NCBI GenBank assembly: GCA_947623935.1
Contig: CANQIE010000001.1
Span: 4,169-68,168, forward strand
Source of the DNA: an uncultured Bacilli bacterium
Lineage (GTDB): Bacteria > Bacillota_I > Bacilli_A > RF39 > UBA660
Direction: 5' to 3'
Length of the DNA stretch: 64,000 bases
This document shows, in pieces, positions 23,605 to 57,157 of this stretch. The notes under the pieces were generated by a model. That model saw only the letters and a list, made by a program, of their open reading frames with translations. It did not search any database and was not told the origin of the DNA. Both the position numbers and the translations under genes were made by a program. The number at the start of each line of letters is the position of its first letter. Position 1 is the first letter of the stretch.

Positions 23605-25170
23605 TTAGGAGTTTACACCTGTGTGCGACAAGAAAACATTAATTTCTTCCATTTTCTTGTTTTTATCAAGACGCATAAAGATAGGTTTTGCCTCTTGGAC
23701 TTCATAGGCATTATCTTCTTTATACGTTAAAGTATCATCCGTAGTTCCTAATTGACTTAAGATTTCTTTACTGGTATCCGGTAAGAAGGCTTCTAGTAAA
23801 TTAGCACATACACGAATAGATTCTAATAAATTGTATAATACCGTTGATAGAAGGGCTTGCTTACTTTCATCTTTGGCAAGAGCCCAAGGAGTAGTATCAT
23901 CAATATATTTATTACTGTTACGTAATTGGTTCATAATTTCTTCAAGAGCATTTCCAACTTCTAATTTATTCATCTTTTTATCCACTAAAGTTGGTAGATT
24001 CTTGATATGATCAATAAAGCTTTCATCAAATTCGGTTGTTTGACTCGTACGACTTACTTTTCCATCAAAATATTTATGAGCCATTGAAATCGTTCTATTG
24101 ACCAAATTTCCTAAAACATTCGCAAGATCGCTATTGTAACGTTCAATGATTAAATCATAAGTTATATTTCCATCGTTGGCAAAAGGCATCTCATGTAAAA
24201 CATAATAACGAATAGCATCGACTCCAAATAAATGCACTAAATCGTCGGCATACATAACGTTACCTTTACTTTTACTCATTTTATCGTCTTGAAAAAGCAT
24301 CCATGGATGACCAAAGACTTGTTTTGGTAAAGGTTCACCTAGCGCCATTAAAATAATAGGCCAATAAATAGTATGAAATCGAATAATATCTTTACCAATT
24401 AAGTGTAAATCGCAAGGCCACCACTTGTTGTACTCTGAACTACTACCATCGACATCGTAACCAATGTTCGTAATATAATTGGTTAGTGCATCAATCCAAA
24501 CATAGACTACATGTTTTGGATCAAAATCTACTGGAATTCCCCAAGAGAAACTAGAACGCGAAACACATAAATCTTGTAGACCTGGTTTGATAAAATTATT
24601 AATCATTTCATTCTTTCTAGATTCAGGTTGAATAAACTCTGGATGAGATTCAATGTAATCAATTAATTGATCTTGGTATTTTGATAATTTAAAGAAATAC
24701 GCTTCTTCTTCCGCTTTATGAACTTCTCTTCCACAATCGGGACATTTGCCATCCACTAATTGACTCTCCGTAAAGAAAGATTCGCAAGGAGTACAGTATA
24801 ATCCTTTATAAGTTCCTTTATAGATATCCCCTTGTTCATAAAGTTTTTTAAAGATTTTTTGTACTTTTTTAACATGTTCTGGATCGGTAGTTCTTACAAA
24901 ACGATCATAGCTTGTGTTCATAATATCCCAAATCGCTTTAATTTCACCTGCTACTTCGTCGACATAAGCTTGAGGAGTAATACCTTTTTCTTTAGCTTTT
25001 AACTCAATTTTCTCCCCATGTTCATCGGTTCCCGTTTGAAAATAAACTTCGTATCCTTTTTTTCTTTTGTACCTAGCAATGGCATCTGCTAAAACAATCT
25101 CATAGGTATTTCCAATATGTGGTTTCGATGAAGTATATGCAATTGCCGTACTAATGTAAAATTTTTCCAT
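23605..25170 (-). CDS. metG: methionyl-tRNA synthetase (short form without C-terminal tRNA-binding domain)
   Basis: HIGH-type (SKPHIGN) and KMSKS (KMSKSKGN) motifs, zinc knuckle CTPCE...CPDCG. Confidence 0.95.
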   Translation of the reverse strand: MEKFYISTAIAYTSSKPHIGNTYEIVLADAIARYKRKKGYEVYFQTGTDEHGEKIELKAKEKGITPQAYVDEVAGEIKAIWDIMNTSYDRFVRTTDPEHVKKVQKIFKKLYEQGDIYKGTYKGLYCTPCESFFTESQLVDGKCPDCGREVHKAEEEAYFFKLSKYQDQLIDYIESHPEFIQPESRKNEMINNFIKPGLQDLCVSRSSFSWGIPVDFDPKHVVYVWIDALTNYITNIGYDVDGSSSEYNKWWPCDLHLIGKDIIRFHTIYWPIILMALGEPLPKQVFGHPWMLFQDDKMSKSKGNVMYADDLVHLFGVDAIRYYVLHEMPFANDGNITYDLIIERYNSDLANVLGNLVNRTISMAHKYFDGKVSRTSQTTEFDESFIDHIKNLPTLVDKKMNKLEVGNALEEIMNQLRNSNKYIDDTTPWALAKDESKQALLSTVLYNLLESIRVCANLLEAFLPDTSKEILSQLGTTDDTLTYKEDNAYEVQEAKPIFMRLDKNKKMEEINVFLSHTGVNS

Positions 25171-25184
25171 TTCTTTTTCCTCCT

Positions 25185-25435
25185 AAAAAAAGATGACTTA
25201 TTATGTTAAGGACGGATCTTTTCCGCGGTACCACCTTAATTTATAATAAATCATCTTATTATACACTTTCTAAAGTTAACGCCTATCTTACGTTTTCGCC
25301 TACCTATCGACGAAAAAGTTCCGAAGCCATATCCATTTGAGTCATCTTTCCTTGCTTTCACCTAACCAAGGTCTCTTTTTTAAAGAATCAATCAAAGGAC
25401 TCTTCATCAAAACTTTTGAATATGGCTAGATTATA
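25185..25435 (-). promoter_or_regulatory. T-box riboswitch leader upstream of metG
   Basis: minus strand contains T-box sequence AATTAAGGTGGTACCGCGG (plus 25223..25240); terminator halves AAGATGATTTATTAT / ATAATAAGTCATCTT flank it, followed by U-run and metG RBS; ATG-containing candidate specifier region GAAAGATGACTC further 5'. Confidence 0.65.
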
Positions 25436-38264: not shown

Positions 38265-38282
38265 AAATTATCACCTCAAAAT

Positions 38283-38366
38283 AAAAGATGCACATGAGAT
38301 TAAACTATTAAAGCTGCTATCTTCCGATCCTGACTTGGTTCTAGTCATCTCATTGCATCGTTATTA
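38283..38366 (-). ncRNA. ffs: small SRP RNA (4.5S/scr), domain IV
   Basis: minus strand GATGCAATGAGAT...GTCAGGATCGGAAGATAGCAGC...ATCTCATGTGCATC: closing helix plus conserved GUCAGG-NNN-GGAA-NNN-AGCAGC with GGAA tetraloop; U-run follows. Confidence 0.6.
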
Positions 38367-38404
38367 TTGTAATCTATTTTTATTTTTTTTGCAACTATAT
38401 ATTA

Positions 38405-38420
38405 TGTTTCACGTGAAACT
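38405..38420. promoter_or_regulatory. parS site (TGTTTCACGTGAAACT)
   Basis: 15/16 match to Firmicutes parS consensus TGTTNCACGTGAAACA; palindromic. Confidence 0.7.
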
Positions 38421-38432
38421 CACATAAATTTT

Positions 38433-38446
38433 ATTTCCCGGGAAAT
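38433..38446. promoter_or_regulatory. Noc-binding site (NBS) palindrome ATTTCCCGGGAAAT
   Basis: exact match to published B. subtilis NBS 14-mer. Confidence 0.65.
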
Positions 38447-38512
38447 AATCTAAATAAAAATAGTATTTTTTTATTTACTTGGAAATATTTTTATAAAAAG
38501 AAAATCAAATTT

Positions 38513-38526
38513 ATTTCCTGGGAAAT
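38513..38526. promoter_or_regulatory. NBS variant ATTTCCTGGGAAAT
   Basis: 13/14 match to NBS consensus. Confidence 0.5.
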
Positions 38527-38538
38527 ATTTTTTAACAA

Positions 38539-38554
38539 TGTTTCACGTGAAACT
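38539..38554. promoter_or_regulatory. parS site (TGTTTCACGTGAAACT), second copy
   Basis: identical to 38405..38420; 12 bp downstream of gyrA stop. Confidence 0.7.
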
Positions 38555-38565
38555 TCTCAATTATT

Positions 38566-41211
38566 TTATTCATCTTCAGTTGGTACTTCAATTGCTTCAA
38601 CTACAGATTCATCATCTTCTTCTAAATCATCATTGTTTTCTTCATGTGCAACCGATGCAACGGAAGCCACTTTTTGATCATTCTTCAAATGAATTAAACG
38701 AACACCTTGTGTTGAACGACGTAAAGTAGATACTTGATCGATTGGTAATCGAATGACGATTCCACTATCAGTAATAATAACTAAATCTTCTTCATCAGTA
38801 ACAGCTTTTAAAGTAACAAGCATTCCATTCTTTTCAGTAACATTTAAGGCTTTAACACCTTTGCTACCTCTATGTGTTAAACGATAATCATCAATTGGTG
38901 TTTGTTTTCCATATCCATTTTCAGTAACAACTAAAACATTTTCGTTGGCATAAACGATTTCGCCACCCACTACTTTAGCAGAACCTAAATCGATTCCTCG
39001 AACACCAGAAGCAGATCTTCCCATGATCCGAACTTCAGATTCTTTAAAGCGAACCATTCGTCCATTAGAAGCACCAATAATAATTTCATTATCTCCCGTA
39101 GTCTTACCTACAGAAATCAATTCATCATCTTCTTTTAAAGTGATAGCTATTTTTCCACTTCGACGAATATTATCAAATTCAACTAAGTTTGTTCTCTTAA
39201 CTACACCATTTCTAGTAATAAAGAATAAATATTTATAATCTTCTTCATTCGCTTTGATAGATAAAATTGAATTAATTTTTTCTTCTTTTTCCACAGGTAA
39301 TAAATTGATAATTGGCAATCCCTTACTTTGTCTGCTAAATTCTGGAACCTCGTAACCTTTCATACGATAGACTTTACCTTTATTACTAAAGAATAAGATA
39401 TAGTCATGCGTTTCCATGTTGATCATTTTTTCAACGAAATCTTCTTCGCTAGTAGCCATTCCTTTAACACCTACACCACCTCTATTTTGAGTACGGTATT
39501 CATCTACAGATAGACGTTTAATGTATCCTTTATTAGTAAGTGTTATCAATGTATTTTCAACTGGAATAAGGGATTCATCTTCGATATAATCAACGGCAGT
39601 CATATCAATCTTGGTACGTCGATCATCACCATATTTCTTTTTAATTTCAAGCATTTCTTCTTTAATAATTTCAAGAACACGTTCAGGTTTAGCTAGAATA
39701 TCTTTGTAATCAGCAATTTTGATTTGTAAATCTTCTAGTTCACTTTCAACTTTTCCACGTTCCAAACCAGTTAAACGACGAATACGCATTTCAAGAATAC
39801 TATTTGCTTGAATTTCATCCAAGCCAAAACGTTCTTGTAATTTAGCACGTGCTTCTTCATCCGTATCAGCAGAACGCACAATATGAACCACTTCATCGAT
39901 ATTATCTAAAGCAATTCGTAATCCTTCTAAAATGTGAACACGTTCTTCTGCTTTTCCTAAATCAAAACGAGTTCTTCTAACAATAACTTCTTTTTGATGT
40001 TCAATATATTTAGAAATAATATCTTTTAATCCTAAAGTCTTTGGTGTTTGTCCATCCAAAACAAGGAAAATAATTCCATAATTAACTTGGAAATTCGTAT
40101 GTTTATATAAATTATTTAAAACAACTTGTGGATTAGCATCCTTCTTTAAAGTAATTGTTATTTTGACCCCATCTTTTAGATCCGTATGGTAGTCTGAAAT
40201 ACCTTCAATAACTTTATTGTGTACTAATTCAGCTACTTTATTTTTAAGTTCCATTGTATTAACACCATAAGGAACTTCATCGATAATAATATTGCTGTGG
40301 CTTCCTGCATCTTCAATGGTAGCTTTACTACGAATGGTGATGCTTCCACGACCTGTTTCATAAGCCTTCTTAATACCAGAATTACCTAAAATAATTCCTC
40401 CTGTTGGAAAATCAGGTCCTTTAATATATTCCATTAAACCTAGAGTATCAATGTCTGGATTATCAATATACGCAACACATCCATCGATAACCTCAGATAA
40501 GTTATGTGGCGGAATATTCGTAGCCATACCAACCGCAATTCCCATAGAACCATTAACTAAAATGTTAGGAAATCTAGAAGGTAAAACCGTAGGTTCTTTC
40601 ATAGTAACATCGAAGTTATCGTCCATATCAACGGTATCTTTATTGATATCTCTCAATAATTCCAAAGAAATCTTAGCAAGGCGAGATTCGGTATAACGCA
40701 TTGCTGCAGCACCGTCTCCTTCGATATTACCAAAGTTTCCATGTCCATCAATCAACACATATCGTTGATTAAAATCTTGCGCTAAACGAACCATCGCTTC
40801 ATAAATAGAACTATCGCCATGTGGGTGATAATGACCCATTACATAACCTACGGTCGTAGCACTTTTACGATGAGGTTTATCTGGTGTATAACCTGATTCA
40901 TACATACTCCATAAAATACGACGATGAACTGGTTTTAATCCATCTCGTAAATCCGGTAAAGCACGCGATTTAATAACACTCATGGAATATTCCATAAAAG
41001 ATGTTTTTACTTCATCGACAATATTATTGTGATCAAGTCGGTCTCTTTCATGAAAGTAACCACTGAAGTTAGAACTATTAGAAGACGCTAATGTATTATT
41101 ATCATTGGTCGCCTCTTCGTTTGTACTATCTAAAACAATATCTTCTTCAACCGGTCCATCATTTTCATTAGCACGATCTAATAATTCATCTAAATTATCT
41201 TTATTATCCAT
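38566..41211 (-). CDS. gyrA: DNA gyrase subunit A (with about 45-aa low-complexity N-terminal extension and acidic C-tail)
   Basis: SRALPDLRDGLKPVHRR, active-site region, six GyrA-box-containing C-terminal blades; 881 aa. Confidence 0.95.
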   Translation of the reverse strand: MDNKDNLDELLDRANENDGPVEEDIVLDSTNEEATNDNNTLASSNSSNFSGYFHERDRLDHNNIVDEVKTSFMEYSMSVIKSRALPDLRDGLKPVHRRILWSMYESGYTPDKPHRKSATTVGYVMGHYHPHGDSSIYEAMVRLAQDFNQRYVLIDGHGNFGNIEGDGAAAMRYTESRLAKISLELLRDINKDTVDMDDNFDVTMKEPTVLPSRFPNILVNGSMGIAVGMATNIPPHNLSEVIDGCVAYIDNPDIDTLGLMEYIKGPDFPTGGIILGNSGIKKAYETGRGSITIRSKATIEDAGSHSNIIIDEVPYGVNTMELKNKVAELVHNKVIEGISDYHTDLKDGVKITITLKKDANPQVVLNNLYKHTNFQVNYGIIFLVLDGQTPKTLGLKDIISKYIEHQKEVIVRRTRFDLGKAEERVHILEGLRIALDNIDEVVHIVRSADTDEEARAKLQERFGLDEIQANSILEMRIRRLTGLERGKVESELEDLQIKIADYKDILAKPERVLEIIKEEMLEIKKKYGDDRRTKIDMTAVDYIEDESLIPVENTLITLTNKGYIKRLSVDEYRTQNRGGVGVKGMATSEEDFVEKMINMETHDYILFFSNKGKVYRMKGYEVPEFSRQSKGLPIINLLPVEKEEKINSILSIKANEEDYKYLFFITRNGVVKRTNLVEFDNIRRSGKIAITLKEDDELISVGKTTGDNEIIIGASNGRMVRFKESEVRIMGRSASGVRGIDLGSAKVVGGEIVYANENVLVVTENGYGKQTPIDDYRLTHRGSKGVKALNVTEKNGMLVTLKAVTDEEDLVIITDSGIVIRLPIDQVSTLRRSTQGVRLIHLKNDQKVASVASVAHEENNDDLEEDDESVVEAIEVPTEDE

Positions 41212-44384: not shown

Positions 44385-44861
44385 TTAGCCATTTTTTACT
44401 GTTTTTCGATGATTTAAAATAGATTCTAATAAAGTCGCTCTTAAAAATTGATTATTTAGAGAATAACTGGAGACATTGGTTTTAATAATTTTTCCATTAT
44501 TGAAATAGATTAAAGCTTTTCTTTGATTTTTTCCAATCTTTTTAAAATGCTTAAGGGATATCCAAATACAATCATCTAATAAAGGTGAATTGGTTGGAAA
44601 GAAAATGAGCCTTCGATCTTCTTCTACCACAATAGGTAATTTGTACTCTGCATTTAGTATTGCTTTAGACCCTATTACTCTCCCCTCATAACTACTTCCA
44701 TAATACTTACAACTGTCATCCATAATCTCGTAAGCAGACTTATCTACGATATACTCATCGTTGGTTTCAATGATACGTGACTTATTTTCAGATATACTAA
44801 TAATAGCTAGTGTATCATCATTGATTTCATAATCAAACATTTCTTTTCCCCCTAACTGCAA
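44385..44861 (-). CDS. comK: ComK-family competence transcription factor-like protein
   Basis: CKYYGSSYEGR, PIVVEEDRRLIFFPTNSP...CIWISLKHF, YFNNGKI blocks align with B. subtilis ComK (CRFFGSSYAGR, PIMVDPSNQIFLFPTLSS..CGWISHVHV, TFSNGKT). Confidence 0.7.
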   Translation of the reverse strand: MQLGGKEMFDYEINDDTLAIISISENKSRIIETNDEYIVDKSAYEIMDDSCKYYGSSYEGRVIGSKAILNAEYKLPIVVEEDRRLIFFPTNSPLLDDCIWISLKHFKKIGKNQRKALIYFNNGKIIKTNVSSYSLNNQFLRATLLESILNHRKTVKNG

Positions 44862-46231: not shown

Positions 46232-47599
46232 TCACTTAATATCTTTCATTAATTTTTCAATGGTTCCTGCCAATTCTTTATTTGTTTTCATTTCTCGTTC
46301 GATTTTTTCACAGGAGTGCATAACGGTAGAATGATCTTTTCCACCAAACTCCATTCCTATTTTAGGAAAAGATTCATTAGTGAGTTTTCTACACAGGTAC
46401 ATGGCAACTTGTCTTGGAAAAGCAAGATTTGCACTTCGCTTCTTACTTTTCATATCTTCACTTGATATTTGATAAAATTCTGCTACTCGCTTTTGAATTT
46501 TTTGAATATCGTTTTTCTCAGTTACTCCCTTGTTGATAAAATCTTTTAAGGCTTCTATTGCTAAATCTAAGTTGATTTCTTGTCCACCCATGATGGTGGA
46601 ATATGCAAGTAGCCTATTGACTGATCCTTCGAGCTGTCTAACATCATTTCCCATATTAGAGGCAATATATTCAATGACATCTTCGGGAATTTCTCGTTCA
46701 ATGGCTCCTCCTAAAATCTTCTTTTTTAGAATGGATACGCGTAAATCGAAGTCTGGTGGAAAAATGTCTACTGTTAATCCCCAACAGAACCTTGTTCGTA
46801 ACCTGTCCTCTAAGACTTTTAAATCATCTGGTGATCGGTCTGAGGAAATAATAATTTGTTTATTATCACTATATAAAGTATTAAAGGTATGGAAAAATTC
46901 TTGTTGAGTTTTAGTAGCTCCTCCTAAAAACTGAATGTCATCGATGATTAGTACATCTACATTTCGATATTTATTTTTAAAATATTCTATATAATTAAAG
47001 TTATTACCGTTATCATCTTTGGTATTGATGCCCAAGAAATCTTCTATAAATTGTTCACTAGTAACATATAACACCCGTCGATTAGAATTTTGTACGATGA
47101 AGTTACCAATCGCATGCATCAAATGGGTTTTTCCTAATCCACTATTACCATATATAAATAAAGGGTTATACATTTTTCCAGGATTCTCTGCTACGGATAA
47201 AGCCGCGGCATGAGCAAATTTATTACTGTTTCCAACAACAAAGTTTTCAAAAGTATAATTTGGATTTAAATTTGATTGCACATTATTATTGGAAGGAATA
47301 ATAACTTCTTTCTCTTCTTCTTTCCGTCGTTCAATTTCTTTTTTCTCATCAATCTCTTCTTGTAGTAAAAATTCTATTTCAAAATTAGATCCTGCTAAAT
47401 TATTAAAAGTTTGAATAATTAAATCTTTATAATTATCTTCTAAATGTCTTTTGTGTATTTCCATCGGAACTATAATTGTCGCTTTTCCATTCTCTAATGC
47501 GTAAAGATGCGTATCTTGAAACCAAGTTTCGTAAGATAAGGAGGTAATTTCTTTTTTTATTTCTTCTAAGAAATTATCCCATAAGATGGTAACATTCAT
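46232..47599 (-). CDS. dnaA: chromosomal replication initiator DnaA
   Basis: AAA+ Walker A GNSGLGKTHL, DnaA signature, C-terminal HTH DNA-binding domain; start at MNVTILW. Confidence 0.95.
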   Translation of the reverse strand: MNVTILWDNFLEEIKKEITSLSYETWFQDTHLYALENGKATIIVPMEIHKRHLEDNYKDLIIQTFNNLAGSNFEIEFLLQEEIDEKKEIERRKEEEKEVIIPSNNNVQSNLNPNYTFENFVVGNSNKFAHAAALSVAENPGKMYNPLFIYGNSGLGKTHLMHAIGNFIVQNSNRRVLYVTSEQFIEDFLGINTKDDNGNNFNYIEYFKNKYRNVDVLIIDDIQFLGGATKTQQEFFHTFNTLYSDNKQIIISSDRSPDDLKVLEDRLRTRFCWGLTVDIFPPDFDLRVSILKKKILGGAIEREIPEDVIEYIASNMGNDVRQLEGSVNRLLAYSTIMGGQEINLDLAIEALKDFINKGVTEKNDIQKIQKRVAEFYQISSEDMKSKKRSANLAFPRQVAMYLCRKLTNESFPKIGMEFGGKDHSTVMHSCEKIEREMKTNKELAGTIEKLMKDIK

Positions 47600-47608
47600 A
47601 AATATCAC

Positions 47609-51453: not shown

Positions 51454-51456
51454 ATT

Positions 51457-51470
51457 ATTTCCCGGGAAAT
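51457..51470. promoter_or_regulatory. Noc-binding site palindrome ATTTCCCGGGAAAT between mnmE and mnmG
   Basis: exact NBS 14-mer embedded in a 24-nt perfect palindrome AAATTATTTCCCGGGAAATAATTT. Confidence 0.6.
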
Positions 51471-51502
51471 AATTTTAGTGCAAAAAAAAGGAAGTGAAAA
51501 CG

Positions 51503-54133: not shown

Positions 54134-55378
54134 ATGGATATGGAGAAAGAAATTGTCGATTTATTAGTGGATGATATTATCCCAAACCGCTTTCAACCTC
54201 GTGAAGTTTTTGATGAAAAAGCTTTACAAGAATTAGCCGCATCCATAAAAGAACATGGCGTTATTCAACCGATTATTGTTCGTAAAATCAACGATAAGTA
54301 CGAGATTATTGCAGGGGAGCGAAGATATAAAGCTTCCATCATGGCAGGTCTTAATAAGATTCCCGCAATCATACGTAATTTAGATGATAAAGAAAGTTCT
54401 AAAGTAGCTTTACTTGAAAACTTACAGAGAAAAGATTTAAGTGCGATTGAAGAAGCAAGAACCTATCAAAAAATTCTAGACTTAGATAACATGACGCAAG
54501 AAGAATTAGGTAAAACAATGGGTAAGAGTCAAGCGGCCGTTGCTAATAAATTACGTTTACTTGCTTTACCGGATGAAGTTCAAGAAGCTTTATTAAATAA
54601 TAAAATTTCTGAACGCCATGCAAGAAGTTTATTAAATGTAAGTGATAAAGAAAAGCAAATTGAATTATTAAATAAAATTATTGAGAATAAAATGACCGTT
54701 CGTGATTTAGAAAACGAAATTAAAGCACTTAATGGAGATCATCATGAACCAACGCTCATTATTGAAGAACCTCCTCAGGCCAAAGAATCAAATATTTTCT
54801 CTTCTCTTTCAAATATGAATCCTGAACCAATTAAAGAAAATAATTCGGATCTGTTAGTAACATCAAATGTACAAAATGATACATCTTCCAACTTCCGATT
54901 TATTCCTACCTTTGATGAAGAAGAAACTAAAGCTGACCCAGAAAAAGAAAATTCATCCGCTAATTTTGATTTCTTGGCTAATACAACTATTCAATCAAGT
55001 GAAAATGATTCTACTGAAGGAGAAACTACTTCTAGTGTTACTCCGCCACTACCAAAAAAGGATGATATCGAAAGTCTAGAAGAAGAACCTAAAAATCCTG
55101 AACCTTATCAACCGTTTACCAATACAGCAAACTTAATTAACGAATTTCACATGAAAAATGAAAGTAAAGATACGGAACCACTTTCATCATCTATTCAAAC
55201 ACCTATCTCATTTGAAGTAGAAACACCAGTAAATGAAATTCCAAATTTAAGAACTGCTATCAATACGATTCGTGATTTAGCTAAAAAGTTAGAAGATAAC
55301 GGATTTGTGGTTAATCTAGATGAAATGGATTTTGAAAACAAATATCAAATTAATATCAGTATTGATAAAAATAAATAA
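54134..55378 (+). CDS. noc: Noc-like ParB-family protein with long low-complexity C-terminal extension
   Basis: ParB N-domain IPNRFQPR, HTH with Q/K/R at specificity positions (GKSQAAVANKLRLL...ERHAR) versus R/M/S in the adjacent Spo0J; 414 aa versus about 283 for Noc. Confidence 0.7.
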   Translation: MDMEKEIVDLLVDDIIPNRFQPREVFDEKALQELAASIKEHGVIQPIIVRKINDKYEIIAGERRYKASIMAGLNKIPAIIRNLDDKESSKVALLENLQRKDLSAIEEARTYQKILDLDNMTQEELGKTMGKSQAAVANKLRLLALPDEVQEALLNNKISERHARSLLNVSDKEKQIELLNKIIENKMTVRDLENEIKALNGDHHEPTLIIEEPPQAKESNIFSSLSNMNPEPIKENNSDLLVTSNVQNDTSSNFRFIPTFDEEETKADPEKENSSANFDFLANTTIQSSENDSTEGETTSSVTPPLPKKDDIESLEEEPKNPEPYQPFTNTANLINEFHMKNESKDTEPLSSSIQTPISFEVETPVNEIPNLRTAINTIRDLAKKLEDNGFVVNLDEMDFENKYQINISIDKNK

Positions 55379-55494: not shown

Positions 55495-56283
55495 ATGGGA
55501 AAGATAATAGCATTAGTTAATCAAAAAGGTGGAGTAGGAAAAACGACAACAAGTATTAATCTTTCTGCATCGCTTGCCTTATTAGGTAAAAAAGTTTTAA
55601 TGATCGATTTAGATCCCCAAGGAAATGCTACTACAGGAGTAGGAATAAACAAAGGAGAGATTACTAAAAGTGTTTACGATGTTCTTACGCAAAAATGTCC
55701 CATTCAAGAAGCTATTAAGAAAACCAAATATAAAAATTTATCAATTTTGCCTGCTACTATAAATTTAGCGGGAGTCGATATTGAATTATTAGAAAAAAGC
55801 AAAGAAGAACCTGGTTTTGCTAAAGGAATGCCTTTGAAAAATGCACTTCAACCGGTTATCGATGAATATAATTATATTATTATTGATTGTCCCCCTTCGT
55901 TAGGACTCATTACAACGAATGCTTTGACTGCTGCGAATTCTGTTATTATTCCGGTACAATGTGAATTCTTTGCCCTAGAAGGAATTACTCAATTATTAAA
56001 AACCATTATGTTAGCACAAAAAAACTTAAATCCTAACTTAAATATCGAGGGAGTTCTATTAACGATGTTAGATTCTAGAACAAATCTAGGAATCGAAGTA
56101 GTGGAAGAAATAAGAAAATACTTTAAAGAACGTGTTTACAATACCATTATTCCAAGATTGGTTCGCTTAACGGAAGCTCCATCGCATGGAAAACCTATTA
56201 TTGCTTATGATCCAAAGAGTAGAGGATCAGAAGCTTATCTCAATTTAGCAAAGGAAGTGATTGAACGAAATGGAAACATCTAA
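55495..56283 (+). CDS. soj: chromosome partitioning ATPase ParA/Soj
   Basis: deviant Walker A NQKGGVGKTT. Confidence 0.95.
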   Translation: MGKIIALVNQKGGVGKTTTSINLSASLALLGKKVLMIDLDPQGNATTGVGINKGEITKSVYDVLTQKCPIQEAIKKTKYKNLSILPATINLAGVDIELLEKSKEEPGFAKGMPLKNALQPVIDEYNYIIIDCPPSLGLITTNALTAANSVIIPVQCEFFALEGITQLLKTIMLAQKNLNPNLNIEGVLLTMLDSRTNLGIEVVEEIRKYFKERVYNTIIPRLVRLTEAPSHGKPIIAYDPKSRGSEAYLNLAKEVIERNGNI

Positions 56284-57157
56284 AAGACGCGCCTTAGGAA
56301 GAGGCCTTGAAGAATTATTTAATAATGAACCGATTGATTATAATCAAATCGAAGAGCGTATTATTACTTCAACTCCTAAAGATGAAATTGTCGAAATCAA
56401 ATTAAGTGAATTAAGAAGTAATCCTTATCAGCCAAGAAAAGTTTTTGATGAAAAGGCACTTCAAGAGTTAGCCGCATCCATAAAAGAACATGGCGTATTT
56501 CAACCGATTATTGCTAAGAAAAGTATTAAAGGATATGAAATCATTGCAGGAGAGCGAAGAGTAAAAGCGTCTCGCCTTGCGGGAAAAGAAACCATTCCCG
56601 CCATTATTCGTGATTTTACCGATGAAGAAATGATGGAGATTGCCCTTCTTGAAAACCTTCAAAGAGAAAACTTAAATGCCATGGAAGAAGCAACGGCTTA
56701 TCGTAAACTATTACAAGAGTTAAATATTACTCAAGACGAACTAGCTTCCCGTATTGGAAAAAGTAGAAGTCATATTACCAATATGCTAGGTTTATTAACT
56801 CTTCCAGAAGAAGTTAAAAACATGCTTTTAGAAGATAAAATTTCGATGAGTCACGCCAGAGTATTAAGTAAAATCGAAGATAGTGAAAAAGTAATTAGTC
56901 TTGCAAATCGTGTTTATAACGAAGGATTAAATGTTCGTATCTTAGAAGATTTAGCTTCTTCCAATGAATTAAAAAAGAAAAATAAAATCGTAAGACATCA
57001 TGTTCGTGAAAACGAATACCATTATTTAGAAGAACAATTAACCGAAAAATTAGGAACCAAAGTAAAAATCAAAAACAATCATATGATGATTAGTTTTGCT
57101 AATACCAACGATTTAAATCGTATTTTAGAAATTATGGGTATGACGTACGACGAATAA
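56270..57157 (+). CDS. spo0J: chromosome partitioning protein ParB/Spo0J
   Basis: LGRGL, GERR arginine patch (IIAGERRVKA), HTH GKSRSHITNMLGLL; start ATG overlapping soj by 14 nt. Confidence 0.9.
   Translation: METSKRRALGRGLEELFNNEPIDYNQIEERIITSTPKDEIVEIKLSELRSNPYQPRKVFDEKALQELAASIKEHGVFQPIIAKKSIKGYEIIAGERRVKASRLAGKETIPAIIRDFTDEEMMEIALLENLQRENLNAMEEATAYRKLLQELNITQDELASRIGKSRSHITNMLGLLTLPEEVKNMLLEDKISMSHARVLSKIEDSEKVISLANRVYNEGLNVRILEDLASSNELKKKNKIVRHHVRENEYHYLEEQLTEKLGTKVKIKNNHMMISFANTNDLNRILEIMGMTYDE

What the first reader, a model, noticed from the sequence alone, without database searches (positions are those of the whole stretch)
38400..38560. Compact array of two parS sites bracketing two Noc-binding-site palindromes in the gyrA-ffs spacer
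Two identical 16-mers, TGTTTCACGTGAAACT (38405..38420 and 38539..38554), match the Spo0J/ParB parS consensus at 15 of 16 positions. Between them lie a perfect Noc-binding site ATTTCCCGGGAAAT (38433..38446), a one-mismatch variant ATTTCCTGGGAAAT (38513..38526) and a degenerate third copy (38473..38486). A third perfect NBS sits between mnmE and mnmG (51457..51470). Having loading sites for both paralogous CTPase clamps (Spo0J and Noc) interleaved within 150 bp, about 9 kb from oriC, is unusual. The NBS sites had looked like unexplained palindromes until recognised as such. This arrangement may create competition or cooperation between ParB and Noc spreading at the same locus.
Basis: partly seen in the sequence, partly recalled or inferred. 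Interest (0 to 1): 0.6.

Follow-up and report, generated by a model that had tools for sequence, protein, structure and literature searches.

The report
Paired ParB and Noc loading sites
The short gap between gyrA and the SRP-RNA gene holds docking sites for two related chromosome-organising proteins (ParB and a Noc-like paralogue) side by side, and over a hundred related uncultured gut Bacilli show the same pairing at the same spot, which I did not find described in the papers I could search.

Summary
Two identical parS 16-mers (38405-20, 38539-54) bracket a perfect NBS (38432-47), a one-mismatch NBS (38512-27) and a decayed copy (38472-87). Spacing is mirror-symmetric: 27-40-40-27 bp centre to centre. 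The array fills the gyrA-ffs spacer about 9 kb from dnaA. No other parS lies in the 64 kb; one more perfect NBS follows mnmE.

The window encodes both cognate proteins. ParB has specificity residues R-M-T-S. The Noc orthologue, in the rsmG-noc-soj-parB slot, has NBS-type residues Q-K-A-R.

The arrangement is lineage-wide. A parS-gap-NBS pattern expected about 0.01 times by chance hit at least 119 species genomes, all but three in the gyrA-downstream spacer. In loci chosen by gyrA homology alone, 28 of 55 in-clade spacers carry both site types. Close neighbours are preferentially one parS plus one NBS, and their spacing follows the DNA helical repeat. Hybrid sites are almost absent. Three Bacillaceae controls show nothing similar.

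The Noc orthologue lacks the membrane-targeting helix that defines canonical Noc, so classical nucleoid occlusion is unlikely.

Best reading: a composite centromere that loads two paralogous CTP clamps. No binding was tested.

Novelty: new variant of a known kind. Interest about 0.66.

The parts
38405..38420 (.). parS-1 (TGTTTCACGTGAAACT), 10 bp upstream of the ffs -35 hexamer
   Evidence: 15/16 to the parS sequence, identical to parS-2 (family D2). The clade tolerates a mismatch at the outermost position.
38432..38447 (.). NBS-1, perfect 16-bp Noc-binding site TATTTCCCGGGAAATA; its centre is 27 bp from the parS-1 centre
38472..38487 (.). NBS-2, decayed copy TATTTACTTGGAAATA (3 mismatches), probably weak or non-functional
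   Evidence: It lies in exact 40-bp register with NBS-1 and NBS-3. Decayed NBS copies inside such modules also occur in relatives.
38512..38527 (.). NBS-3, TATTTCCTGGGAAATA (1 mismatch, at the central position)
   Evidence: Central-position variants are the commonest one-mismatch NBS class in the clade (58 of 76).
38539..38554 (.). parS-2 (TGTTTCACGTGAAACT), 11 bp past the gyrA stop codon; its centre is 27 bp from the NBS-3 centre
   Evidence: The same variant sits just past the gyrA stop in relative L124.
51456..51471 (.). Isolated perfect NBS between mnmE and mnmG
   Evidence: A perfect NBS lies just past the mnmE stop in L201-L203 and at the corresponding mnmE-mnmG position in L001. It is absent in the Bacillaceae controls.
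54134..55378 (+). noc orthologue (414 aa): NBS-type specificity residues Q-K-A-R, no N-terminal membrane-targeting helix, about 165-aa disordered linker
55495..56283 (+). soj/parA
   Evidence: ParA-family models; Pfam ParA/CbiA domains on the orthologue.
56270..57157 (+). parB/spo0J (295 aa from the ATG): specificity residues R-M-T-S, N-terminal RALGRGLEEL ParA-interaction-type motif
38566..41031 (-). gyrA; its stop codon bounds the array
   Evidence: NF004043, 1138.7 bits; the match starts at residue 61 of the maximal ORF 38566-41211.
38271..38394 (-). ffs (small SRP RNA, 38271-38369) with its sigma-70-like promoter (38366-38394)

Best explanation
The 150-bp gyrA-ffs spacer is this chromosome's origin-proximal centromere, in a composite form typical of its lineage. 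It combines two loading sites for ParB/Spo0J (parS) with two good and one decayed loading site for the Noc paralogue (NBS).

Each 16-bp palindrome should nucleate a dimer of its own protein. Both proteins keep the CTP-binding motifs of ParB-family clamps, so after CTP binding they should close around the DNA and slide onto flanking DNA. Both would then coat the same region, about 9 kb from oriC.

In this lineage the two site types are selected to lie next to each other and in a preferred rotational relation. This suggests that neighbouring ParB and Noc-like nucleation complexes coexist and act together rather than independently.

The Noc orthologue here lacks the N-terminal amphipathic helix that canonical Noc needs to bind the membrane. 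It therefore probably does not do classical nucleoid occlusion. It more likely acts as a second centromere-bound clamp, whose long disordered linker, with one conserved short helix, recruits an unknown partner.

Shown: the site sequences, the cognate genes and their specificity residues, conservation of position and of pairing, and the absence of the membrane helix. Inferred: binding, clamp loading, coupling between the two proteins, and the biological role.
For: Sites and proteins
- The sites and their statistics.
- Both proteins are encoded in the window. Their best solved relatives are Noc (213 bits, against 174 for Spo0J) for the Noc-like protein, and Spo0J (211, against 155 for Noc) for ParB.
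- The specificity residues fit the rules of PMC7383237.
- GERR and ENLQR are invariant columns in alignment A1.

Lineage-wide recurrence
- The pattern GTTTCACGTGAAAC-N3-33-ATTTCCNNGGAAAT is expected about 0.01 times by my own estimate for 6e11 bases at 30% GC. It gave at least 119 genome stretches.
- All but three of these lie between gyrA and ffs/tadA/dnaX, at gyrA identities of 55-84%. There were 0 hits in viral contigs.

Unbiased sample (loci chosen by gyrA homology only)
- Of 55 in-clade loci, 28 have both site types, 12 parS only, 11 NBS only and 4 neither. No site lies anywhere in these loci upstream of the gyrA 3' end. Ten outgroup loci have none.

Selection on the sites
- 427 perfect parS, 368 perfect NBS and only 3 hybrid sites in 1.68 Mb. 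Spacers are not conserved even among close relatives.

Pairing and phasing
- Neighbours within 60 bp are heterotypic 36 times and homotypic 11 times. Shuffling the labels within each locus gives a mean of 21.9 heterotypic, and 0 of 5000 shuffles reach 36.
- parS-NBS centre distances peak near 25, 36, 46 and 55 bp. Rayleigh power is 26.7 at a period of 10.75 bp over distinct spacers (0 of 5000 null draws reach it). It is 11.3 with one pair per locus, 7.4-8.0 after harsh clustering of similar spacers, and p is about 0.006-0.02 in the unbiased subset alone. parS-parS and NBS-NBS distances are not phased.

The Noc orthologue
- It starts 26 residues into the Geobacillus Noc structure, and the same holds for all 120 closest homologues. 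Canonical Noc proteins all start MKHxFSRFFGLG and are Q-K-K-R.
- Removing the helix abolishes Noc function in B. subtilis (PMC4331003; PMC8429893).
Against: - No binding, spreading or localisation data exist for this uncultured lineage.
- In the unbiased sample, 23 of 55 spacers hold only one site type. Co-location is therefore frequent but not obligatory.
- Layouts vary widely between relatives, from single pairs to tandem arrays with more than a dozen repeats of each site. A rigid architecture is therefore not conserved.
- The phasing statistics suffer from phylogenetic non-independence and weaken when similar spacers are merged.
- No direct ParB-Noc contact is known.
- Only 64 kb of this genome was seen. 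Other parS sites, or a wide scatter of NBS sites compatible with a canonical-like role, cannot be excluded.
Confidence: 0.62

Rival explanations
1. Independent co-location. The gyrA-downstream spacer is simply the one tolerant non-coding 'landing pad' near oriC. parS and NBS sites accumulate there separately, each serving its own protein (ParB for segregation and SMC loading, Noc-like for its own role), with no functional coupling.
For: - Many relatives have parS-only (12) or NBS-only (11) spacers out of 55.
- Site numbers and order vary greatly between relatives.
- Isolated NBS sites exist elsewhere, for example after mnmE.
Against: - Within spacers, close neighbours are heterotypic far more often than label shuffling predicts (36 against 21.9; 0 of 5000 shuffles reach 36).
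- Only heterotypic distances follow the helical repeat.
- N-11 bp-P modules recur in several relatives.
Confidence: 0.2
2. Antagonism or insulation. NBS-bound Noc-like dimers act as roadblocks next to parS (or the reverse). They shape or confine the sliding of the other clamp, so the array sets the boundaries or direction of ParB spreading rather than building a joint complex.
For: - In the window the NBS sites lie between the two parS sites. ParB clamps can therefore leave outward, while the inner DNA is occupied.
- That DNA-bound proteins block sliding ParB-CTP clamps is from my recollection of the literature (for example PMC7053999, whose abstract only was seen, in the listing).
Against: - The inside/outside layout is not conserved. 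Relatives have strictly alternating arrays or single pairs.
- Nucleating dimers of CTP clamps leave their sites after CTP binding, which makes them poor static roadblocks (PMC8429893).
Confidence: 0.12
3. One protein binds both site types. The lineage's ParB carries Ser at position 201 and is dual-specific, so parS and NBS are both ParB sites and the Noc-like protein is irrelevant to the array.
For: - ParB here and in about 87% of its 120 closest homologues has S201 instead of the Gly described as absolutely conserved.
- In the deep mutational scan, dual-specificity variants mostly had T or S at position 201 (PMC7383237).
Against: - Hybrid sites are virtually absent (3, against 427 perfect parS and 368 perfect NBS). 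A dual-specific reader should tolerate them.
- A dedicated Q-K-x-R paralogue is conserved in all 120 homologues.
- S201 also occurs among parS-specific variants in the scan, and this ParB has no permissive Lys or Arg at positions 179 or 184.
Confidence: 0.04
4. The palindromes are not clamp-loading sites at all. They would be terminators or operators for gyrA or ffs, or chance palindromes in AT-rich DNA.
For: The array lies between the gyrA stop codon and the ffs promoter, where a terminator or operator could be expected.
Against: - No terminator-like hairpin followed by a T-run was found.
- Shuffles exclude chance.
- The sites match two known 16-bp consensus sequences exactly, and both cognate proteins are encoded in the window.
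- Relatives carry more than a dozen copies of each site, and in some the array lies beyond ffs.
Confidence: 0.02

Closest known systems
Chromosomal ParB(Spo0J)-parS centromere of Bacillus subtilis and other bacteria
   Same: The same 16-bp palindrome (15/16), an origin-proximal location, a ParA-ParB operon, and ParB with the N-terminal ParA-interaction-type motif and CTP-binding motifs.
   Different: - All parS sites seen here sit in one intergenic cluster downstream of gyrA. None lies inside parB, where the three Bacillaceae controls have theirs.
- The parS sites are interleaved with sites for a second paralogue.
- ParB has Ser instead of Gly at specificity position 201.
Noc-NBS nucleoid occlusion system of B. 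subtilis and S. aureus
   Same: An identical 16-bp NBS; the gene in the rsmG-noc-soj-spo0J slot; Q173, K179 and R201 specificity residues; ParB-type NTD and HTH domains; CTP motifs.
   Different: - No N-terminal amphipathic membrane helix: the protein corresponds to the engineered Noc lacking its first 26 residues.
- Position 184 is never Lys.
- A variable disordered linker of roughly 50-250 aa.
- It scores below the NCBIfam Noc cut-off (298.8 against 315).
- NBS sites are concentrated next to parS. In the model species they are scattered over the origin-proximal half to two-thirds of the chromosome (PMC5540599; PMC8429893).
Clusters of several parS sites near oriC (for example the four-site cluster in Pseudomonas aeruginosa, PMC4368675; Caulobacter, PMC5815017)
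   Same: Several closely spaced loading sites form one centromere region within about 10 kb of oriC.
   Different: Those clusters contain one site type for one protein. Here two site types for two paralogues alternate. (Both papers are known to me only from the titles and abstracts listed.)
Iterated plasmid centromeres (F sopC tandem 43-bp repeats; P1 parS with two box types), from general knowledge
   Same: Relatives of this genome carry true tandem arrays, for example more than a dozen repeats of an 82-bp unit holding one parS and one NBS (L097). These resemble sopC-like iterons.
   Different: This is a chromosomal locus, and the two motifs are read by two different paralogous proteins. In P1 a single protein reads two box types.

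Membership tests
parS (ParB/Spo0J loading site) | 16-bp palindrome matching TGTTNCACGTGAAACA | tested here: met
   15/16 at both sites; the mismatch is at the outermost base, a position tolerated in the clade.
parS (ParB/Spo0J loading site) | Origin-proximal position, and a cognate ParB with Arg at position 173 encoded together with ParA | tested here: met
   About 9 kb from dnaA. ParB has residues R-M-T-S and lies next to soj. Position 201 is Ser rather than the usual Gly.
parS (ParB/Spo0J loading site) | Specific binding and CTP-dependent loading of ParB | not testable with these tools
   Needs purified protein (EMSA or bio-layer interferometry) or ChIP.
NBS (Noc-binding site) | 16-bp palindrome TATTTCCCGGGAAATA, with A at position 1 and C at position 6 of each half-site | tested here: met
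   16/16 at 38432 and 51456; 15/16 at 38512; 13/16 at 38472.
NBS (Noc-binding site) | Cognate protein with Q173, R201 and at least one Lys at position 179 or 184 | tested here: met
   The window protein is Q-K-A-R, aligned to Noc structures. The rule comes from PMC7383237. All 120 homologues are Q-K-x-R.
NBS (Noc-binding site) | Many sites scattered over the origin-proximal part of the chromosome and absent near the terminus | tested here: inconclusive
   Only 64 kb of this genome is available. It holds one isolated NBS besides the array. Relatives show further isolated NBS sites within a few kb.
Noc (nucleoid occlusion protein, TIGR04285) | Score at or above the curated NCBIfam cut-off | tested here: not met
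   298.8 bits against a cut-off of 315. NCBI names the homologues that carry a source name generic ParB/RepB/Spo0J family partition proteins.
Noc (nucleoid occlusion protein, TIGR04285) | Highly conserved N-terminal amphipathic membrane-targeting helix, required for function | tested here: not met
   The protein starts MDMEKEIVD, aligned to residue 26 of Geobacillus Noc, with no upstream in-frame start. The helix is missing in all 120 homologues. It is present as MKHxFSRFFGLG in all 120 canonical Noc proteins. The functional requirement is from PMC4331003.
Noc (nucleoid occlusion protein, TIGR04285) | Gene located between rsmG(gidB) and soj-spo0J; closer to Noc than to Spo0J in sequence | tested here: met
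   Gene order rsmG-noc-soj-parB. Best solved relatives are Noc (213 bits), ahead of Spo0J (174 bits).
ParB-family CTP clamp | ParB N-terminal domain with the GERR and ENLQR CTP-binding motifs, plus the HTH domain | tested here: met
   Pfam ParB_N and HTH_ParB hit both proteins. G61, E62, R63, R64 and E95, N96, L97, Q98, R99 are invariant in A1. The AF2 model has pLDDT 85-95 over most of residues 10-200. CTPase activity itself was not tested.

The most novel reading that the evidence does not exclude
In this lineage of uncultured Bacilli the Noc paralogue is not a nucleoid-occlusion factor. It is an integral second subunit of the centromere. ParB and the membrane-helix-less Noc load from rotationally phased, heterotypic parS-NBS modules and build a two-clamp partition or organising complex. 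The state seen here (specificity already switched to NBS, sites still next to parS, no membrane anchor) could be the ancestral stage of Noc evolution after the ParB duplication, or a reversion to it.
Probability: 0.3. Interest if true: 0.85.

Novelty: new variant of a known kind. Interest (0 to 1): 0.66.

Why it matters
ParB and Noc are the textbook pair of paralogues that diverged in DNA specificity and in function: segregation versus division-site control. In the model species their sites are treated as separate systems.

In this lineage the NBS-specific paralogue has lost, or never gained, its membrane anchor, and its sites are selected to lie beside parS at one conserved locus. That offers three things:

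1. A natural experiment on what an anchor-less Noc does.
2. A testable case of two CTP clamps loading from adjacent sites, which may cooperate, insulate each other or share a complex.
3. A possible intermediate in the evolution of Noc from ParB.

It also marks the centromere of a large, uncultured, gut-associated group, which may help to orient draft genome assemblies of this group and locate their origins.

Tried and rejected
- Exact-protein look-up with the maximal 881-aa gyrA ORF found nothing, because that ORF carries a spurious 60-aa N-terminal extension. The Noc-like protein worked instead, but only traced the window to an unnamed Logan assembly.
- I searched the supplements of PMC7383237 for the measured specificity of the exact residue combinations RMTS, QKAR and QKSR. 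The scan table is not held, and the main text does not name QKAR. The specificity calls therefore rest on the paper's general rules.
- Literature searches for mixed parS/NBS clusters or for Noc in RF39-type lineages returned nothing relevant. This is absence within the searchable library only.
- NCBI taxonomy for 'Candidatus Scybalousia' is a homonym trap: a Bacteroidales genus, and the renamed Bacilli genus Ca. Alloscybalousia. I did not assign an order. Record titles say only Bacilli, Erysipelotrichaceae, Mycoplasma or Tenericutes MAGs.
- Terminator scan of the spacer: none found.
- Scan of viral contigs with the pair pattern: 0 hits.
- The idea that the mirror symmetry of the window array comes from a recent inverted duplication was rejected. 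The arms match mainly through the palindromes themselves, and the 11-bp spacers differ.
- The dual-specific-ParB idea was considered and down-weighted because hybrid sites are absent.
Full report
**1. What is in the window**

Two identical 16-mers, TGTTTCACGTGAAACT, lie at 38405-38420 and 38539-38554. Between them are TATTTCCCGGGAAATA (38432-38447), TATTTACTTGGAAATA (38472-38487) and TATTTCCTGGGAAATA (38512-38527).

Dinucleotide-preserving shuffles of the window never reach the observed counts:
- parS with up to 3 mismatches: 5 strand-hits against 0.91 expected.
- NBS 14-mer with up to 2 mismatches: 3 against 0.39 expected.
- NBS 16-mer with up to 3 mismatches: 5 against 0.55 expected.

The repeat finder shows the three NBS-like units at exactly 40-bp intervals and the two parS sites 134 bp apart. 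The whole array is mirror-symmetric, with gaps of 11-24-24-11 bp between 16-mers and centres 27-40-40-27 bp apart. The 11-bp spacers on the two sides are unrelated in sequence, so this is not a recent inverted duplication.

The array fills the spacer between the gyrA stop (38566, minus strand) and the promoter of ffs (TTGCAA-17-TACAAT at 38394-38366; ffs itself at 38271-38369, Rfam RF00169). GC skew changes sign just beyond dnaA (46232-47608), which puts the array about 9 kb from the origin. No other parS-like site of any quality exists in the 64 kb. One more perfect NBS lies between mnmE and mnmG at 51456-51471.

**2. The cognate proteins**

The window carries rsmG, a ParB-family gene, soj and parB, in the canonical Bacillus order.

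The 414-aa ParB-family protein is closer to solved Noc structures (213 bits) than to Spo0J (174 bits). The 295-aa ParB shows the reverse preference (211 against 155 bits).

Jalal et al. 2020 (PMC7383237) showed that four residues set specificity. R173, x179, x184 and G201 give parS binding. Q173 and R201, with at least one Lys at 179 or 184, give NBS binding. Aligned to the structures, the window's Noc orthologue is Q-K-A-R and its ParB is R-M-T-S.

So an NBS reader and a parS reader are both encoded about 16 kb from the array. Both keep the GERR and ENLQR motifs of ParB-type CTP clamps.

**3. The arrangement is lineage-wide**

I scanned 185,579 species genomes for GTTTCACGTGAAAC, a gap of 3-33 bases, then ATTTCCNNGGAAAT. 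By my own estimate this pattern is expected about 0.01 times by chance in 6e11 bases at 30% GC. Nearly all come from metagenome-assembled genomes titled Bacilli, Erysipelotrichaceae, Mycoplasma or Tenericutes; they include Clostridium sp. CAG:710 and Ca. (Allo)scybalousia. The same pattern gave 0 hits in 2.9 million viral contigs.

Comparing these loci with the window's proteins by blastx shows that all but three (L050, L100, L114) lie in the same syntenic slot, downstream of gyrA and before ffs/tadA/dnaX. GyrA identity to the window ranges from 55 to 84%.

Most loci hold clusters of both site types. Some hold long tandem arrays: more than a dozen repeats of an NBS-36-parS-46 unit in L097, similar arrays in L064 and L063, and repeated 26-bp pairs in L048.

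Among the closest relatives the 16-mers stay perfect, while spacer sequence, site number and site order change freely. That is the signature of selection on the sites themselves. ffs usually follows the array; in L097 it precedes it.

**4. Removing the ascertainment bias**

I fetched 80 metagenome loci chosen only by GyrA homology. Of these, 55 are in-clade (65-86% identity) and have at least 600 bp downstream of gyrA. Within 3 kb downstream:
- 28 carry both site types,
- 12 carry parS only,
- 11 carry NBS only,
- 4 carry neither.

Ten outgroup loci (55-56% identity) carry none. No site lies anywhere in these loci upstream of the gyrA 3' end. Some of these loci are near-duplicates of each other.

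Within 54 distinct spacers, neighbours no more than 60 bp apart are heterotypic 36 times and homotypic 11 times. Shuffling the labels within each locus gives a mean of 21.9 heterotypic, and 0 of 5000 shuffles reach 36.

**5. Two separate specificities, and helical phasing**

In 1.68 Mb of fetched loci there are 427 perfect parS sites, 368 perfect NBS sites and only 3 of the possible hybrid palindromes. A single relaxed reader would tolerate hybrids, so two readers are indicated.

One-mismatch variants concentrate at half-site positions 1 and 5 for parS and at the centre for NBS. These are the kinds of variant seen in the window.

Centre-to-centre parS-NBS distances peak at about 25-26, 35-36, 45-47 and 55 bp. 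The strength of the periodicity depends on how non-independence is handled:
- Distinct spacers: Rayleigh power 26.7 at a 10.75-bp period, and 0 of 5000 draws from a smoothed null reach it.
- One randomly chosen pair per locus: power 11.3.
- After merging spacers at least 60% identical: power 7.4-8.0.
- Unbiased subset alone (n = 24): p about 0.006-0.02.

parS-parS and NBS-NBS distances show no such signal. The window's two parS-NBS distances (27 bp) fall in the first peak.

I read this as evidence that the two kinds of dimer occupy neighbouring sites at the same time in a preferred rotational relation. The statistics are still affected by shared ancestry among the loci.

**6. The Noc orthologue is not a canonical Noc**

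It begins MDMEKEIVD, aligned to residue 26 of the Geobacillus Noc structure. The in-frame upstream stretch has no start codon. All 120 closest homologues share this short N-terminus and are Q-K-x-R, with x never Lys. Their lengths range from 297 to 496 aa because of a variable linker.

In contrast, 120 canonical Noc proteins from Bacillaceae are all Q-K-K-R and start MKHxFSRFFGLG.

Adams et al. 2015 (PMC4331003) found that N-terminal amphipathic helix extremely conserved and necessary for function. Jalal et al. 2021 (PMC8429893) showed that it is the CTP-regulated membrane anchor.

The window protein also scores below the curated NCBIfam Noc cut-off (298.8 against 315).

An AlphaFold2 model built on alignment A1 gives:
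- a confident N-terminal domain and DNA-binding domain (pLDDT 85-95 over most of residues 10-200),
- a disordered linker (about 205-370),
- one helix within the linker at 331-343, coinciding with a conserved PYQPFTNTxxLLNEF-type motif,
- a confident C-terminal domain.

It is therefore an orthologue of Noc by position, sequence and DNA specificity, but it fails the feature that defines the nucleoid-occlusion mechanism.

**7. Controls in canonical-Noc genomes**

I fetched 21-kb loci from B. subtilis, Metabacillus litoralis and Bacillus altitudinis, running from dnaN to about ychF or rpsR. They contain only the known parS inside spo0J (plus one weak parS-like site in Metabacillus) and no NBS at all, neither after mnmE nor next to parS.

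By contrast, three further genomes of the window's lineage (Noc identity 50-81%), and L001, an assembly with 100%-identical proteins, all keep a perfect NBS in the mnmE-mnmG spacer. They have no parS across these loci (dnaA/dnaN through noc-parB and beyond), which include parB.

**8. Interpretation**

The gyrA-ffs spacer is best read as the centromere of this chromosome in a composite form, with loading sites for ParB and for an anchor-less Noc paralogue placed side by side.

Shown:
- the identity and statistics of the sites,
- the cognate genes and their specificity residues,
- conservation of position,
- selection on the sites,
- heterotypic pairing,
- absence of the membrane helix.

Inferred:
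- binding,
- CTP-dependent loading and spreading,
- coupling between the two proteins,
- the role of the Noc-like protein.

Cooperation between Spo0J and Noc in preventing premature Z rings is known genetically in B. subtilis (PMC6852036). S. aureus Noc additionally restrains replication initiation (PMC5540599). So an origin-linked role for a Noc paralogue has precedent, but neither system has paired sites.

The rivals are independent co-location in a permissive spacer, antagonistic roadblocking, a dual-specific S201 ParB, and non-clamp functions. They are listed with their evidence in the structured fields.

**9. Novelty and limits**

My searches of the open-access library found no description of interleaved parS/NBS clusters or of Noc orthologues lacking the helix. 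The components are well known, so I class this as a new variant of a known kind.

Limits:
- The lineage is uncultured and nothing here was tested experimentally.
- Only 64 kb of the genome is visible.
- The MAG loci are phylogenetically related.

Noticed in passing
window 54134-55378 (+): The Noc orthologue lacks the roughly 26-aa N-terminal region with the membrane-targeting helix. It carries a disordered linker of about 165 aa containing one conserved short helix (residues 331-343, PYQPFTNTxxLLNEF-type motif). All 120 closest homologues share the short N-terminus.
   Followed up: yes
window 56270-57157 (+): ParB has Ser at the position of Gly201, which Jalal et al. 2020 describe as absolutely conserved in ParB orthologues. 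About 87% of its 120 closest homologues also have Ser. In the published mutational scan, T or S at position 201 was typical of dual-specificity variants but was also allowed in parS-specific ones.
   Followed up: partly
window 51456-51471: An isolated perfect NBS lies between mnmE and mnmG. Three other genomes of the lineage keep a perfect NBS just past the mnmE stop, and so does L001, an assembly with 100%-identical proteins. It is absent at this spot in three Bacillaceae genomes.
   Followed up: yes
window 44385-44861 (-): A ComK-family ORF (PF06338, 138 bits) sits between dnaN and recF. The same gene occupies this slot in relatives L201-L203.
   Followed up: partly
window 25205-25419 (-) and 23605-25170 (-): A T-box leader (RF00230, 118 bits) precedes a 521-aa methionyl-tRNA synthetase gene.
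   Followed up: no
L097 4512-5500; L064 1139-2147; L063 7098-8000; L048 4139-8000: Some relatives carry long, regular tandem arrays (up to more than a dozen units) in which each unit holds one parS and one NBS. Unit lengths are about 75-84 bp, or 26-bp pairs repeat every 147 or 308 bp. They resemble plasmid iteron centromeres.
   Followed up: partly
fetched loci (flanks of about 800 perfect sites): Site flanks are themselves conserved in the clade. parS is preceded by A in 98% of half-sites, giving an 18-bp palindrome A-parS-T, often inside cAA...TTg. NBS sites sit inside AAAT...ATTT.
   Followed up: partly
L178, L180, L140, L174 (NBS only); L137, L155, L181 (parS only): A minority of related genomes have gyrA-downstream spacers with arrays of only one site type. 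Whether the partner site type lies elsewhere in those genomes is unknown.
   Followed up: no
window 38566-41211 (-): The maximal gyrA ORF has a 60-aa N-terminal extension that family models do not cover. The real start is probably near 41031, which is why an exact-protein look-up with the long form failed.
   Followed up: partly
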